Origin: Octopus vulgaris
Taxonomy: Eukaryota
NCBI GenBank assembly: GCA_951406725.2
Contig: OX597817.1
Coordinates: 164,424,001 to 164,488,000, forward strand
Length of the DNA: 64,000 bases
Direction of reading: 5' to 3'
Part shown: positions 12,508 through 23,744 of the stretch, piece after piece
Layout of the letters: each line of letters begins with the position of its first letter
How positions within the stretch are numbered: position 1 is the first letter of the stretch
The notes under the pieces: model-generated
Databases searched by the model: none
Seen by the model: the letters and a program-made list of their open reading frames with translations, nothing else
Told to the model about the DNA's origin: nothing
Position numbers and translations under genes: made by a program

Positions 12508-15094
12508 CATTGTTTCTCTGCTGGAGTCCATGTAACACTTGGGGGCCCCTGTAAGATTTTGTTGTTAAAATGTATGTGCAATAAATTGGTTCATTGCACT
12601 TCTACAATGCACAACACATTTTAACATATTTTAGTACAATCCCTAATAATATTTAAATATGTAATTGTAAAAATATTATAGGATTTTTTAAAACTTTGAA
12701 TGGTTCTGGAGTTCCATCCAAGTAAAACTGGTCACAAGTAGTGACTGGACTCAAACTGGACTAAAACTGGACTCAAACTGGTCACAAGTAGTCACCTCTC
12801 CAACAAGAGGCGACAACACCTTGGACCTGCTCTTCACCACAACTCCTGAAGCGGTTATCAATTGCACTACGGAGGAACCTCTAGGTGACTCTGATCATGC
12901 TATGATCATCGCCAATCTGGCTCTTGCGGGCAACAAACACCTGAACCATCTCCAATCTGCTTCCTTCGATTGGAAGAGAGCAGATTGGAACCTGTACCAC
13001 ACTGAACTACAGCACCCAAACTGGCGTGAATTCTACAACTCTGGAGATGTGAATACTATACTCCAGAGTATCCTGGACTCAATATGGGCAGCATGTGCAG
13101 CATCAGTGCCACGTAAACAAAAAAAGAAGAACCGCCCCAAAAGGGCAATTTGGGAAACTTCAGCGGTCCGACTTGCCAGGAAGGAACGTCGGACTGCTGA
13201 ACAGGAATACAAGTTGCATAAATCAGACACCAACAGGAAGAAGCGGAATAAATCCTCCAACCATCTCAAGCAAGTGACAAAAAATGCAGTGCTTGAATTT
13301 GAACAGTGCATAGCAGCCAATCCTGACAGCAAGGTTTTCTGGAAATATGTGCATTCAAAGCAGAGACCTCACTCTCCAGTGGGCCCTCTTCGCAACCCTC
13401 ACACGAACCAGATCACTGACGACCCCAAGGAATGCGCAGAACTCATTGCCGAGTGCTATGCAAACATATTCACTGTCGAAAGTCAAAATGTACCATCTTC
13501 ACCATCACTAACAGCAAACTCCATAACAACTATGGAATTTACACCTGCAATGCTGCGACGTCACCTTCAAAATAAGCGCAACTATGCCTCCCCTGGTCTC
13601 GATGGAGTTACATACCTGCTTCTCAAACGTGGCAGGTACTTCCTTTTACACCAGCTTTCTATTTTCTTCCAGTACTGTCTCAACAATGGTGCTACTCCGG
13701 AGCAGTGGAAAACTGCCAGTGTCATTCCTCTGTTCAAAAAGGGTGACCGCACATCACCTGTCAACTATCGCCCAGTCAGTCTCACTAGCTGTATTGCAAA
13801 ACTGATGGAATCGTGTGTCAGAGAAACACTCTGGAACTTCTGGAGCTCTCACAGTCTCATCCGACCCTCACAATATGGATTTGTCCCTAACTCCAGCTGC
13901 AGTGACCAGCTTGTTGAGTTCCTTGAGGACATTACTCAGATCACTGACAGTGGCTCATGGGTGGATGTTGTCTACCTTGACTTTGCTAAGGCTTTCAACT
14001 CTGTGCCACACAAAAGGCTTATGGTGAAACTCTCTGCAATGGGTGTGGGGGATGACCTTTTTAACTGGTTGAAATCCTTCATCCTCAGCCGAAAGGAGGT
14101 AGTCACAGTTCTAGGACAGCACTCTACACCATATGAGATGTCATCGGGTGTACCACAGGGATCTGTCCTTGGTCCCCTCCTGTTTGTGGCATACATTAAT
14201 GACATAGATGCCAATTTAAAGAATGCCACAGTATTGAAATATGCAGACGACATCAAGCTGTACCTTGAAATCAAGAGGACTGATCCTGATGTCTACAACT
14301 CTTTCCTGCAATCAGACCTAGACACAATGCAGCAATGGATCACAGACTGGCAACTGAAACTGGCTGTGGACAAGTGTACCACCATGCATTTTGGGAGAAA
14401 AAACCCTGCGTCCACATACTCCCTCCACAACACTGATATCAAGAAATCCTCTTGCGAGCGTGACCTAGGCATCACTGTCAGCAGTGATTTGCGTTGGACA
14501 AAGCATATCTCTAAAATTGTCAAGAAGGCCGAGGGTGTCTTGGCATCACTCAGCAAGACTTTTGTTAGCCGCTCTCCAGCCATCTATTTAAAACTGTATA
14601 CTGGTACGACCACACTTGGAATTCGCATCATCAGTTTGGAATCCCTATCTTGCTCAGAACATTGACCTCCTGGAATCTGTCCAGAGACGTGCAACCAAAC
14701 GCATACCCTCCATCAGACACCTACCATATTCTGAGCGCCTTGTTTCCCTGGGCATGGATTCACTGAAGCTCCGGCGTCTGGCGATGGACTTGGTAAACAC
14801 CCACAAGGTTATCAACCACCTCACCAACAACAACACTGAACACCTTTTTGATCTCCATGTGTCTAACACACGTGGACATGCCTACAAAGTCAGAAAACAG
14901 CACAGCTCCCATGACTTTCGGAAATTTTTTCACGCTCAGGGTTGCTGAAGCGTGGAATAAACTGCCTGCATCAGTTGTTGACTGCCATGACACTGCATCC
15001 TTTAAGGCCCTCATGCTTCCCGAAATCCGTCAAAACTACACCTGATTATATATACACTTTAGATGAGTTGTAGTGCACCTGAGCACTGTACACA

Positions 15095-18209: not shown

Positions 18210-18821
18210 ATGGCAGAGCAGAACAAGAGTGTAGAGGACGACTCTTACTCACAAGGAATGTTCTATTTCAGCACTCAGCATTCAGATGCTCTTAGAGCTA
18301 ATGTTGAAGCATTTCGTGTGAATGCAAACTACACTGATGTTACTATAATTATTGAAGACAAGAAATTCCCTTGCCACCGAGCCATCTTGGCAGCAGGTTC
18401 TTATTATTTCAAATCAATGTTTTCGTCTGGAATGGAAGAAACACATAAGAACTCATTTACCATCAAGCAAATCGATCCACTGGTGTTTGGACATGTTTTG
18501 CACTTCATTTATACTGGGAGCATCACCATTACTACTGGAATAGTCTTTGAATTGTTCTCACAATCTCATATGTTCCAAATCTCAACGTTAGTAGAGTTGT
18601 GTGTTCAGTTCTTCAAGGAGGAAATCAGTGACTCAAACTGTCTTTGCGCATTGTCTCTGTCTGATGCCCATGCACATAAGGAACTATACGAGTTCACCAA
18701 GGAATACGCCTGTAAACATTTCACATCACTCATAAAAGATGAAGATTTCTTACGCCTCTCTGGCGAATGTGTGATAGATCTGTTGAAGGACAGACGACTA
18801 AATTGTACAACTGAAAGTCAG
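18210..18821 (+). CDS. Kelch-like protein (KLHL24-like), coding exon 1: BTB and start of BACK domain
   Basis: Acceptor ttttcag|TC ATG; YTDVTIIIEDKKFPCHRAILAAGSYYFKSMFSSGMEE is a canonical BTB motif; donor CAG|gtgagt, phase 0, 204 codons. Confidence 0.95.
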
Positions 18822-19112
18822 GTGAGTGTTTGAATTTCTCATTTTCACCATTCTTGACTGCTGAGTCGAAGTAGATCATTGTCCAGCTTCTGCCTGGTTT
18901 CTAAATTGGCTGAACAAACCCCACTAGTCTGACATTCAGCTACATGACACACTCATGATAAAGAGCCAGTGGGAGCTGTCTATGTGTGAGAGCTCAACAT
19001 AATGGAAATCATACACTACTATCTTATAAGAAGATTATGAGACATTATCACACAATTGTTTTGAGGTTACCTATTTGGCAATGCTGACTTAGTTGACATC
19101 AGACGTTTTAAT

Positions 19113-19147
<35 letters not shown>

Positions 19148-19270
19148 GGAAGAAGGCCACAGACATACATTATGCATTGTTATAAATCTGTCTAATAAAG
19201 GCCCGAAACATATGTACCGCTGAATCCTTGGCATCATGTTTTTATTTTGATCAATTTATTTATCTATCTA

Positions 19271-19307
<37 letters not shown>

Positions 19308-19441
19308 GAGAGAAAGAGAGGGCATTATTACACATATATGCCACACACTAGGAGGGACTCTTAAAGTCAAATCTACTAAAATAAATAAACATATCGTACC
19401 AAATGCAACTCTCGAAGCAAGTCATTTAAAAACAGGATTCA

Positions 19442-19507
19442 GCTGCAGATCACCTGTGTTTTCATAATCAGTGCAGTGGTTTGCACTCTTTACTCATCAG
19501 TGCAAGC
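19442..19507 (-). ncRNA. Type I hammerhead ribozyme, antisense copy with a mismatch in stem III
   Basis: Reverse complement reads GCTTGCA CTGATGA GTAA..AGTGCA aaccac TGCACT..TTAT GAAA ACACAGGTGA TC TGCAGC. Confidence 0.7.
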
Positions 19508-19588
19508 ATAATTCAAGATTTATAATGAATGAACAAATCAACATACCAGACGATTGATTTTGTTCAATTATTATAAATCTTGAATTAT

Positions 19589-19654
19589 GCTTGCACTGAT
19601 GAGTAAAGAGTGCAAACCACTGCACTAATTACGAAATCACAGGTGATCTGCAGC
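19589..19654 (+). ncRNA. Type I hammerhead ribozyme (predicted cleavage after AUC, C19648)
   Basis: Stem I TTGCA/TGCAG; core CTGATGA (19596-19602); stem II GTAA/TTAC extended by AGTGCA-aaccac-TGCACT; GAAA (19633-19636); stem III ATCA-cagg-TGAT; H17 = C. Confidence 0.85.
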
Positions 19655-21174
19655 TGAATCCTGTTTTTAAATGACTTGCTTCGAGAGTTACATTTGGTAC
19701 GATATGGTTATTTTTTTTTTAGTAGTTTTAACTTTAAGAGTCCCTCCTAGTGTGTGGCATATATGTGTAATAATGCCCTCTATATAATATAAATAAATAT
19801 ATTTAAGTGAAAAAAATTGGTGGATTTTTTTCTCTTGAGGTTTTTCACGCTAACTACTTGATAAATTCTTATAAAGATTTTATCCTATTTTTAAATTATA
19901 TATATATATATATATATCCCTCTGGACTGATTGATATATCTGGTGCTTTGCTGTTCACTTGAAGTTCTGTCCACCACAAAAGAATTGATATCCTGGGGAG
20001 CATTTTGTCGTGCAAGTTACTCAGTAACTCTGTTGGTGCTATGTAAAATCACCAGTGCAGGTGCCCTGTGAAAAGAAAGTGCTGCTGGTGTCACGTAAAA
20101 AACATCCAGTACACTCTGTAAGGTGGTTGGCAACAGGAAGGGTATCCAGCCATAAAAACCATGCCAAAACAGACACTGGAGCCTGGTGCAGCCCCTGGCC
20201 TTGATAGCTCCCATCAAACTGTCCAATCTATGCCAACTTGGTAAGTGGATGTTAATGATGATGATTTCTGTATGTGCATTCATATGTTTATCTTCAGTGC
20301 CAAAACAGTTGCAAAAGCAAGTTGAATGTTCAGTCAGTCATGATTCACACCTGATCATCTTATTCCAGGCAGGAAAGATTAGATAATTTTCTCCCGGATA
20401 AATGACCAGATGGATTATACCCGCGCTTGCTCAGGGCAAACTTGGTACTCGACAACAACTGATAACGACCTCTATAGTTCTTTTAAGAATGACAATTAAT
20501 TCAGGATTATGTATGATTTCCCCCCCCCTCCCAAAAAAAGAAAGAAAGAAAGATGTAAGCAACAAAATGATTTGCTAGTTGAACCATCTTTTAAAAATTG
20601 TCACTCATTGGTTGTTAAAATCCTCAGAAATTAGGTCATCCACATCATACTTCTTGTTGTGTCAATGTACAATGTTCTTGTCGTCATCTACTTCTCTAGC
20701 TAACCTACATGTGTCTAGGATGTTCACTTTCACCAAGATTGCAGTATTCTCCCCCTCTGGCAAAATACTTTGTCAATATACTACTTTATCAGTAGTAGTT
20801 GTGGTGGTAGTATTATTAGTGACTGATGTTTTTGTAATTGTATTAGAGATATTATTGTAGTAATCTGGTAATATAGAATGTGATAATGTTATTGGGGGAG
20901 AGTGTAATTAGTAATTATATTAAAGATATTAGAGTAATACCCTGCATTGTGATAGTGGTGGTAATGTTGTTAGGGGAGGGTGTAATAAAAGTGCTTTAGA
21001 TGACTTAAAGCATGGAATTTGATGGTAAAATGTTATACTCTTATCAAGAAGACCCCTGAACAGAGGTATCTCAGCCATAGTTATCCCATATTTTTATTCT
21101 GAAAGCAGTTGAAGATAATGTGTGGAGTGGAGTGTGGGAGTAAGAACAAGGTGTAATAGATGTAGAGTACAGAA

Positions 21175-21407
21175 GGCGGCAAACCGGTAGAAACATCAGC
21201 ATGCCGGACGAAATGCATAGCCATATTTTGTCTGCCGTTACGTTCTGATTTCAAATTCTGCCGAGGTCGACTTTGCCTTTCATCCTTTCGGGGTCGATTA
21301 AATAAGTACCAGTTACGCACTGGGGTCGATGTAATCGACTTAATCCGTTTGTCTGTCCTTGTTTGTCCCCTCTGTGTTTAGCCCCTTGTGGGTAGTAAAG
21401 AAATAGG
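21175..21407 (+). mobile_element. Nin/Deu-domain tRNA-derived SINE, full length, in the KLHL intron
   Basis: tRNA-like head, GCCTTTCATCCTTTCGGGGTCGAT domain, TSD TGTAGAGTACAG at 21161-21172 and 21408-21419. Confidence 0.9.
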
Positions 21408-22631
21408 TGTAGAGTACAGTATTATAGTGAAGACAAATACAGGATGGTTGTGCTCTGTGCTACAGTGTAGCAGTAAGGACAGTAATTGTATTTTTTCTGA
21501 TGACTTATAAAACATTTAAAGAAAATTTATATTTCTGATATTTAAATCCATTTATCAATATTATCATGGGTTATGCTGTTCTGTAAATCACCTTGTTATC
21601 TTAAGCCTTCATCCCCCAGGTTTTGTTGTTTTCGAATTGTCATCAGTGCATTTGTAATGTTGCTTCTTTTGTCTAATCAAGGGTATTGGCTCTACACAAA
21701 CCCATTTTTACCTGTCAGAAGAGGTGGTCCATATTAGTCTGGCCTCTATCCATTGACCTGTTCAGCATAGGTCTCAGGGTCATTGAGACACTCAAGCCAC
21801 CACACTGCAACCAGGACTGGAATTTGTGGTAACATAATAGTGTTAGTTACTAGTTAACATTTTTATCTAACCAGCAATCACTCAAGCATGAAGTGAGAGT
21901 AACACCTGCATTTCAAATAAGGCTACTTCATGCATATAATTTATGCTAGAGTCCAACAGTGTTGGTGGCTGGTTTTAAACCATGACTCAGTTATACAGCA
22001 CCTTAACCACAACACTTCATTGCCTCTAAACATTTTTTTATGGTTTGGCTATGGATTTCTCTTGCTCCCCATCTCATCATTTCTGTTTTATTTGATCACT
22101 ACAACAAAACAGCATTTACATTGAATCTTCATTCTCCACTGCTCTGATTCATTGATGCAACTTAACAAGAGTCTGTTCATTCTTCTATCTACTAACTTGT
22201 CACTAGAACATTATAGAAATAGGATTTCTCTCCATTTATTAAACATAAATATTAAAGATCTGAACATTCTGTGTGACCCCTGTTTTTGGAACAAAACTTC
22301 TTGTGATAAAGACTGTACCATCTTCAATCACTAACCTAACTTGAAATCTTGTTGATGTTATTGTTGTTCTCATACTGTAGCGATTGTTATTATTTAAACT
22401 GTACATGAAAGTGATGGGCCACATAACAAGCAGAGCATCAGACAAAATGCTTTGCATCTCTTCAATTTCTGGGTTAATAAAATAATTACAAGCAAGAAGG
22501 CTGCATATAAAATAGGTATAAGACATGCATTGACTTAAGTTAATTTAATCGATTGTAATTCTAAAATATTTGTGCCACTTTTTAAAAAAAAAATCGATAT
22601 TTCAACTCTATTGACTTGTTTTCTTTTGTAG

Positions 22632-23744
22632 GTTTTCGAGGCTGCTGTCAAATGGCTGGAGTATGACATTGAACACAGGAAATCTTTCCGCTACCAGATG
22701 ATGACTTGTGTGAAGTTTCCCTTGATTGCTCAAAGCTACCTGCTGGATTACGTGATCAAATCCAATCATATGACGTGTGAAAAGGGTCAAGAAATGATAG
22801 AGGATGCAATCTCATTCCATACTGTTCCTTCACGGCGTAACTTACTACAAGCTTATCAGATTACTCCTCGCTTTGCTTTCTCTTACACGGAAGTTGCTGT
22901 ACTCCTCGGTGGCAGAGTGGCTGATGGCCTCAGCAGTGATGTGGAGTTTTACAGACCAGATACAAAAGAGTTTGTGTCTTTGAAACCGCTTCCCTTCAAA
23001 AAGCGAAACGAATATGCTGCTGCAGTGATCGGCAATGAGATTTATGTGTCTGGTGGTTTGAGAAGTCCAGAATTATGGAAATATGATCTCACATTCCATT
23101 CCTGGATTAGAGGAAACAACATGTTACAAGCTCGAAGACGACACGCTATGGCTGTCGTTGATAACAACATTTATGTATTGGGAGGATTTGATGAAGAATG
23201 TGTGCTAAACACTGTAGAAATGTGGGATAGTTCTTCAAATAAATGGACAAGCACGGGAAAACTACTGTTTGCTGTAGAAAACATGGGTTATGTTGCCTAT
23301 GGTAAATACATCTATCTGTTCGGAGGGAAAAACAATGACGAGGTCGTGACAAATGTCGTACAATGTTATGATACAACAACACATACCTGTAGCATCGTAA
23401 AGAATGGTCTTCCTGCAAATGACATGTGCCTCAGTGCTGTGGTATTGAACTCTCAGATATACGTGGTAGGGCTTGAAGGTGTATTTCGTTACACACCACT
23501 AACTGGTAACTGGGACATTCTCCCCGAAATGAGATGTGCCCGTGACTTTGTTAGCTTGGCTGTGCTGGATGAGAAAATCTATTTATTTGGGGGCCGGTGC
23601 AGGGGGTCAAAAGAGAACCTTTATTCTGATCTGATAGAAGTGTACAACTCCAAAGACAACTCATGGGATGTTGTTGGCAAGATCCCTGTGCCAATGTATT
23701 CATATGGTTGTGTGAAAATATTTCTCAGTCAAACAAATACATAA
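22632..23744 (+). CDS. Kelch-like protein (KLHL24-like), coding exon 2: rest of BACK and six-bladed Kelch propeller
   Basis: Acceptor ttttgtag|GTT gives VFEAAVKWLEYD in frame with exon 1; GG..Y..W Kelch repeats; LPFKKRNEYAAAVIGNEIYVSGG, RRRHAMAV and PMYSYGCV resemble KLHL24/35/6 motifs; total 574 aa. Orthology not established. Confidence 0.95.
   Translation, partial: VFEAAVKWLEYDIEHRKSFRYQMMTCVKFPLIAQSYLLDYVIKSNHMTCEKGQEMIEDAISFHTVPSRRNLLQAYQITPRFAFSYTEVAVLLGGRVADGLSSDVEFYRPDTKEFVSLKPLPFKKRNEYAAAVIGNEIYVSGGLRSPELWKYDLTFHSWIRGNNMLQARRRHAMAVVDNNIYVLGGFDEECVLNTVEMWDSSSNKWTSTGKLLFAVENMGYVAYGKYIYLFGGKNNDEVVTNVVQCYDTTTHTCSIVKNGLPANDMCLSAVVLNSQIYVVGLEGVFRYTPLTGNWDILPEMRCARDFVSLAVLDEKIYLFGGRCRGSKENLYSDLIEVYNSKDNSWDVVGKIPVPMYSYGCVKIFLSQTNT

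What the first reader, a model, noticed from the sequence alone, without database searches (positions are those of the whole stretch)
19317..19781. Double-hammerhead foldback: a possible self-masking ribozyme element
Seen: two ~225-bp arms in inverted orientation with a 12-nt loop, each carrying the hammerhead, so either strand contains one ribozyme preceded by its own antisense. Inference: in the sense pre-mRNA the antisense arm is made first and would trap the ribozyme in long dsRNA. That could explain why the insertion is tolerated, and activity might depend on unwinding or A-to-I editing, which is extensive in coleoids (established). It may be an inverted PLE terminal-repeat insertion or an undescribed non-autonomous palindromic retrozyme-like family.
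Basis: partly seen in the sequence, partly recalled or inferred. Interest (0 to 1): 0.75.

Follow-up and report, generated by a model that had tools for sequence, protein, structure and literature searches.

The report
Back-to-back retrozyme insertion in an intron
The hairpin is two overlapping pieces of a common ~500-base non-coding repeat with a hammerhead-ribozyme motif, joined back to back inside an intron; it was likely pasted in from both ends of one DNA break by a Penelope-type enzyme, so the predicted blocking of the ribozyme is probably a by-product, not a designed switch.

Summary
The foldback is real (arms about 93% complementary, 12-nt loop), but it is not a palindromic element family. 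Each arm is a 5'-truncated piece of a 499-nt, tandem-forming, non-coding repeat with a type I hammerhead motif, i.e. a non-LTR retrozyme. The exact junction occurs once in the genome. Of 76 distinct insertions read, 38 carry a head-to-head inverted piece with differing junctions; only 7 inversions cover the ribozyme. Outer ends fall mostly at two fixed points ~100 nt apart, next to (TA)n; in 20 of 20 classifiable two-armed copies the arms use different points. This is the inverted-copy-plus-tail signature of Penelope-like elements. Each arm here holds sequence the other lacks, which favours priming from both target ends over simple fold-back. Only the right-arm hammerhead passes my intactness test. 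Masking in the pre-mRNA is strongly predicted (85 kcal/mol), but nothing shows it is selected or relieved by editing; RNA data were unusable. No partner element was found. This scan has reported a matching family and rule before on other DNA.

The parts
19270..19316 (.). Left target flank: (TA)n run and a short purine/pyrimidine stretch
   Evidence: sequence; family 3' ends usually run into (TA)n
19317..19553 (-). Left arm: inverted, 5'-truncated retrozyme piece ending at the short end point A (unit position ~250-255); includes the 12-nt loop
19435..19514 (-). Type I hammerhead motif of the left arm; G10.1-U11.1 and a stem III mismatch; predicted cut between 19448 and 19447
   Evidence: cleavage untested
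19542..19553 (-). 12-nt loop: family sequence kept only by the left arm, i.e. the difference between the two 5' truncation points
19554..19897 (+). Right arm: sense, 5'-truncated retrozyme piece ending at the long end point B (unit position ~349-355)
   Evidence: 92% identity to a natural tandem unit over 353 columns
19582..19661 (+). Type I hammerhead motif of the right arm; core from 19596; stems I-III pair; predicted cut after 19648
   Evidence: cleavage untested
19782..19897 (+).
19897..19917 (.). Right target flank: (TA)n run
18210..18821 (+). Host gene, upstream coding exon (BTB and first part of BACK domain); donor GT at 18822
22632..23744 (+). Host gene, downstream coding exon (rest of BACK, Kelch repeats); acceptor AG at 22630-22631
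   Evidence: BACK profile positions 1-61 and 62-102 join across the predicted intron

Best explanation
The foldback is one insertion of a 499-nt non-coding hammerhead-motif repeat (a non-LTR retrozyme) made of two 5'-truncated pieces joined head to head, likely produced when a Penelope-type enzyme cut both strands of a (TA)n site and copied the RNA from each DNA end, which would leave the ribozyme blocked in the host pre-mRNA as a by-product. Shown: the unit, its tandem and permuted copies, two fixed outer end points, (TA)n flanks, variable inner junctions, use of different end points by the two arms, and location in a predicted intron in sense orientation. Inferred: the enzyme; a circular or uncut multimeric RNA template (copies run across the predicted cut site); joining of the two cDNA ends by repair; self-cleavage of source RNAs, perhaps helped by dimer folding; masking. 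The copy is most likely an inert, neutrally decaying insertion whose hairpin may be edited like other inverted repeats.
For: Unit of 499 nt in natural tandems, longest stop-free frame 67 codons. 61 non-redundant insertions: main 3' end at A in 30, at B in 23, elsewhere in 8; 28 have a head-to-head inverted 5' piece; of 15 with both ends classifiable, 8 are A/B, 7 B/A, none alike. Hold-out of 15 further loci: 10 inverted, 5 of 5 classifiable discordant; 20 of 20 has chance about 7e-7 if ends were independent. Junction unique. In this copy the left arm has 12 nt the right lacks and the right about 100 nt the left lacks, so neither is a fold-back copy of the other. The arms share a variant seen in no other of 74 aligned pieces. 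Hammerhead columns: N7 takes all four bases, H17 is C 46, A 21, T 5, never G; core positions vary 1-10%; 95% of stem cells pair against 21-42% when slid. Literature: inverted 5'-truncated copy and one-sided tail in PLEs (PMC8557442, PMC3846280, passages); both strands cut and extended, two internal RT starts equal the tail, AT-rich targets (PMC11167929, parts 1-2 of 4).
Against: No partner found: no match of the unit to the terminal regions of 30 GIY-YIG loci, 30 fetched of 150 scored. The tail is about 100 nt, not the 30-40 bp published. In vitro PAc showed no difference of RT start between strands (PMC11167929). 11 of the 28 inverted pieces start at neither A nor B. No covariation above shuffles and no Rfam hit. 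The hammerhead fold is not the predicted minimum-energy fold even in the arm alone (4-5 kcal/mol above). No empty site and no read across the junction. Loci were top-scoring hits, not a random sample.
Confidence: 0.8

Rival explanations
1. Masking is a selective filter: sense intronic copies with an active ribozyme are purged and those whose inverted arm covers it are kept.
For: This copy is intronic, sense and passes the intactness test, and its arm is predicted to block it. Xenopus retrozymes are depleted in introns (10.64898/2026.07.22.740005, parts 1-3 of 5). Blocking by self-complementarity is predicted for plant retrozyme and viroid circles (PMC7229834, part 4).
Against: One case. Only 7 of 76 inversions cover the ribozyme (3 of 44 among loci found without the foldback query). 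Arm differences are mostly mismatches. Short-stem-III hammerheads cleave poorly as monomers (PMC4209133, passages) and 8 of 9 tested Xenopus dimers did not cleave (bioRxiv above), so masking may not be needed. My search for exons round 14 unmasked intact copies found none, so the direct test is open.
Confidence: 0.1
2. The same retrozyme, but the inversion arose by self-priming, template switching or a later local rearrangement rather than priming from both target ends.
For: Head-to-head PLE palindromes were read as self-priming on an antisense template (PMC3846280, passages). Some inverted pieces start at neither end point.
Against: Each arm here has sequence the other lacks; many junctions join non-overlapping unit positions; 20 of 20 classifiable copies use both end points.
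Confidence: 0.12
3. A dedicated palindromic (foldback) element family that moves as a unit.
For: Other long foldbacks exist (L002, L003, L049, L069, L120, L128).
Against: All have different junctions and arm lengths; this junction occurs once.
Confidence: 0.02
4. Assembly mirror artefact.
For: No contig from three DNA runs bridges the junction.
Against: Arms differ at 10 of 222 positions with private changes on both, end at different points, and follow a family-wide rule. The runs are short contigs, probably of other individuals.
Confidence: 0.02

Closest known systems
Metazoan non-LTR retrozymes (Cervera and de la Pena 2020, PMC7229834, parts 2 and 4 of 6 and passages; Li, Clavereau and Pollet 2026, 10.64898/2026.07.22.740005, parts 1-3 of 5; supplements not read)
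   Same: Non-coding unit of a few hundred bases, low GC (31%), one type I hammerhead per unit, partial tandems, proposed mobilisation by Penelope-like elements.
   Different: Unit of 499 nt is above the 150-450 range given in 2020; most copies are 0.5-1.5 units; half carry a head-to-head inverted piece, which I did not find in the parts read ('retrozyme' with 'head-to-head' gave 0 papers). Cleavage and circles not shown.
Penelope-like elements with endonuclease: insertion architecture (PMC8557442, PMC3846280, passages; PMC11167929, parts 1-2 of 4)
   Same: 5' truncation, partial tandems, inverted 5'-truncated copy head to head, tail at one end only, AT-rich or microsatellite targets, type I hammerhead with short near-palindromic stem III (PMC4209133, passages).
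   Different: No RT or GIY-YIG frame; tail about 100 nt, not 30-40; no sequence link found to a coding element.
LINE-1 twin priming (recalled, no call)
   Same: Both target ends prime, giving an inverted 5' piece.
   Different: Here both primings start at fixed internal points and the arms overlap widely in the unit, which needs a circle, a multimer or two RNAs.

Membership tests
Type I hammerhead ribozyme | Core motifs in order, with stems I, II, III and G10.1-C11.1 | tested here: met
   Right arm passes; left arm fails on 11.1 and stem III; 16 of 70 family pieces pass; no Rfam hit
Type I hammerhead ribozyme | Variation concentrated at N7, H17 and loops | tested here: met
Type I hammerhead ribozyme | Compensatory changes in stems | tested here: inconclusive
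   95% paired but covariation equals shuffles, 31 sequences
Type I hammerhead ribozyme | Self-cleavage | not testable with these tools
   needs an assay
Non-LTR retrozyme | Short non-coding low-GC unit in tandem with one type I hammerhead per unit | tested here: met
   tandems in L013, L004, L054; 67-codon longest frame, 31% GC
Non-LTR retrozyme | Two consecutive units with complete hammerheads (active copy as defined by Li et al.) | tested here: not met
   not in this copy; neither unit of L013 nor of L054 passes. Sample limited to 76 insertions
Non-LTR retrozyme | Expression as linear and circular monomer RNA | not testable with these tools
   no holder on record as RNA; only contigs available
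Penelope-like element (autonomous) | RT plus GIY-YIG reading frame | tested here: not met
   no frame in the unit; upstream of the unit lies the unit again
Penelope-mobilised insertion | Inverted 5'-truncated copy, one-sided tail, AT-rich target | tested here: met
Penelope-mobilised insertion | Sequence similarity to the pLTR of a coding element | tested here: inconclusive
   none among 30 of 150 scored GIY-YIG loci
Palindromic foldback element family | Same junction at many loci | tested here: not met
   one match in 2.8 Gb with up to 2 mismatches

The most novel reading that the evidence does not exclude
A Penelope enzyme dimer copies a retrozyme RNA circle from both ends of one break with obligate asymmetry (one end at A, the other at B), and the occasional long second arm silences the ribozyme in cis, so that self-masked copies are the ones that survive in sense orientation in introns. 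The two-ended asymmetric priming alone I put at about 0.6; the selective filter is the doubtful part.
Probability: 0.1. Interest if true: 0.65.

Novelty: new member of a known kind. Interest (0 to 1): 0.3.

Why it matters
As a single locus it is ordinary. As a family it gives a genomic footprint linking a retrozyme to Penelope-type insertion, a link that the papers read infer from co-occurrence and pLTR similarity, and it gives an exact prediction for a bench test: two reverse-transcription starts about 100 nt apart, one per DNA end. It also explains why ribozyme foldbacks keep turning up in this genome without any regulatory design.

Tried and rejected
Rfam scans: no hammerhead family, only generic hairpin matches below cut-off. 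Reads: no RNA holder listed; all runs were short contigs; at 88% likeness the region was swamped by other copies; at 97% no contig bridged the junction and one guessed RNA run laid nothing: inconclusive for artefact, polymorphism, expression and editing. Empty site: the host paralogue matches in the exon only. Partner search: a Pfam accession recalled from memory was not in the library; GIY-YIG loci gave no pLTR match, one locus simply held another copy of the repeat. Selection test: 290 of 322 candidate frames round 14 unmasked intact copies had no Pfam hit, so their intron status is unknown. Pile-up of 5' ends at the predicted cut: none begins at it, 5 of 77 begin at unit positions 80-99; the apparent pile at position 1 is an alignment-split artefact. 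A-to-G imprint between arms in DNA: none of 10 substitutions. One search used a mis-set structure string and was discarded; one search is the valid one. Rows dropped: 16 overlapping loci and 4 segmental duplicates of 81 before the 61-copy count; L089 (ends 231/346) and the interrupted L003 fit the rule but were not counted. Tolerance of intronic cleavage by exon tethering is recalled only; PMC5834221 (passages) merely cites it. A sequence look-up of earlier findings gave nothing.

Full report
Observation. The inverted repeat is there: arms 19317-19541 and 19554-19781 around a 12-nt loop, predicted to pair over 93% of its length at -353 kcal/mol. Each arm carries hammerhead motifs in type I order, the right arm on the + strand (core from 19596, predicted cut after 19648) and the left on the - strand. 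Only the right one passes a test for four-pair stems I-III and G10.1-C11.1; the left has U at 11.1 and a mismatch in stem III. Rfam reports no hammerhead.

Setting. The window lies in a 2.8-Gb genome. The insertion sits between two + strand coding exons of a BTB-BACK-Kelch gene; the BACK profile breaks at position 61/62 across a GT-AG intron, 18822-22631.

What the arms are. A genome search with the foldback gave 2,148 first-look candidates, 40 scored; most hits match one arm plus the loop. Their flanks show that the arm is part of a longer unit that continues on both sides and closes on itself. A natural tandem gives a unit of 499 nt, 31% GC, longest stop-free frame 67 codons. This fits the description of non-LTR retrozymes (PMC7229834, parts 2 and 4 and passages; bioRxiv 10.64898/2026.07.22.740005, parts 1-3). 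In the window the right arm continues to about 19897, and the loop is family sequence that only the left arm kept.

Is the ribozyme real? Across about 70 pieces, N7 takes all four bases, H17 is C, A or T but never G, loops II and III vary in length, and core positions vary 1-10%. Stems pair in 95% of cells against 21-42% when slid, but covariation does not exceed shuffles. 16 of 70 pieces pass the intactness test. Stem III is short and nearly palindromic; the 14-nt piece does not fold alone but two copies pair at -11.4 kcal/mol, as in hammerheads that work as dimers (PMC4209133, passages). I infer that source copies were selected for cleavage and genomic copies decay; cleavage is untested.

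How the foldback arose. From 81 loci, 61 remained after removing 16 overlaps and 4 duplicates. Main 3' ends fall at point A (unit ~250-255) in 30, point B (~349-355) in 23, elsewhere in 8, mostly running into (TA)n; 5' ends are scattered. 28 of 61 have an inverted piece head to head at the 5' side. Of the 15 with both outer ends at A or B, 8 are A/B, 7 B/A and none alike. In 15 further loci fetched afterwards, 10 were inverted and 5 of 5 classifiable ones were discordant. With independent ends 20 of 20 has a chance near 7e-7. Eleven inverted pieces in the first set start at neither point and remain unexplained. Junctions differ throughout, and this one occurs once in the genome with up to two mismatches. 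Inversions long enough to cover the ribozyme number 7 of 76, and 3 of 44 among loci found without the foldback as query. Penelope-like insertions are known to carry an inverted 5'-truncated copy and a tail at one end only (PMC8557442, PMC3846280, passages), and a purified Penelope protein cuts and extends both strands of AT-rich DNA from two internal RNA starts that define the tail (PMC11167929, parts 1-2). Here the left arm has 12 nt that the right lacks and the right about 100 nt that the left lacks, so neither can be a fold-back copy of the other. Both share a variant absent from 72 other pieces, with a background of up to 2 shared variants, which is modest support for one template. 60 of 61 main arms cross the predicted cut site and none starts at it, which points to a circular or uncut template. 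No coding partner was found among 30 GIY-YIG loci.

Self-masking. Forming the hammerhead costs about 5 kcal/mol in the right arm alone and 85 in the foldback, so masking is predicted. Nothing indicates that it is maintained: the arms differ by 10 substitutions in 222 positions, private to either side, none A-to-G; by my reading one of the five transitions gives a G-U pair on the + strand. Editing of inverted repeats is general in animals (PMC9989829, passages), so editing of this hairpin would be unremarkable, and heavy editing would also hit core adenosines (inference). A lone short-stem hammerhead may cleave poorly anyway. The direct test, whether unmasked intact copies occur in sense orientation in introns, failed for want of exons near 14 such copies. 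Read data were contigs only and did not bridge the junction.

Novelty. Searches showed no paper on this family or on head-to-head retrozyme insertions; supplements were not read and subscription journals are largely missing. The parts, however, are known kinds. This scan has reported a ~490-495-nt family with the same two-point rule, and similar foldbacks of other families, elsewhere in this genome; I had the rule before that look-up, and those notes are not independent support. Verdict: real feature, new member of a known kind, interest 0.3.

Noticed in passing
unit positions 84-85 across the family: C11.1 is T in 27 of 72 pieces while the neighbouring G12 is A in only 3, although both belong to one CpG; suggests that source lineages tolerate G10.1-U11.1 but not loss of G12.
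   Followed up: partly
L088, L093 and many places: An abundant Penelope-type family with repeated 781-codon open frames ending in GIY-YIG; its 3' region holds ~93-bp tandem repeats and a degenerate hammerhead-like motif (my reading by eye). No similarity to this retrozyme unit.
   Followed up: partly
window 12692-14948 (+): LINE-type element with endonuclease and RT domains, frame broken near the end.
   Followed up: no
G000:C8:64601393-64601819 (L113): Paralogue of the host BTB-BACK-Kelch exon, 92% identical, with no match in the intron.
   Followed up: partly
L003:1740-2435 (oriented as): Another long foldback whose main arm is split near unit position 220 by a ~340-bp insertion of another repeat.
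   Followed up: no
L013: Tandem array of more than two units that all lack about 46 nt of the unit (period 453).
   Followed up: no
L019/L025, L035/L036, L045-L047: Near-identical insertions close together on one contig, probably segmental duplicates.
   Followed up: no
L099: A GIY-YIG match followed by a splice donor, apparently a cellular nuclease gene (SLX1-like, name recalled) rather than a mobile element.
   Followed up: no
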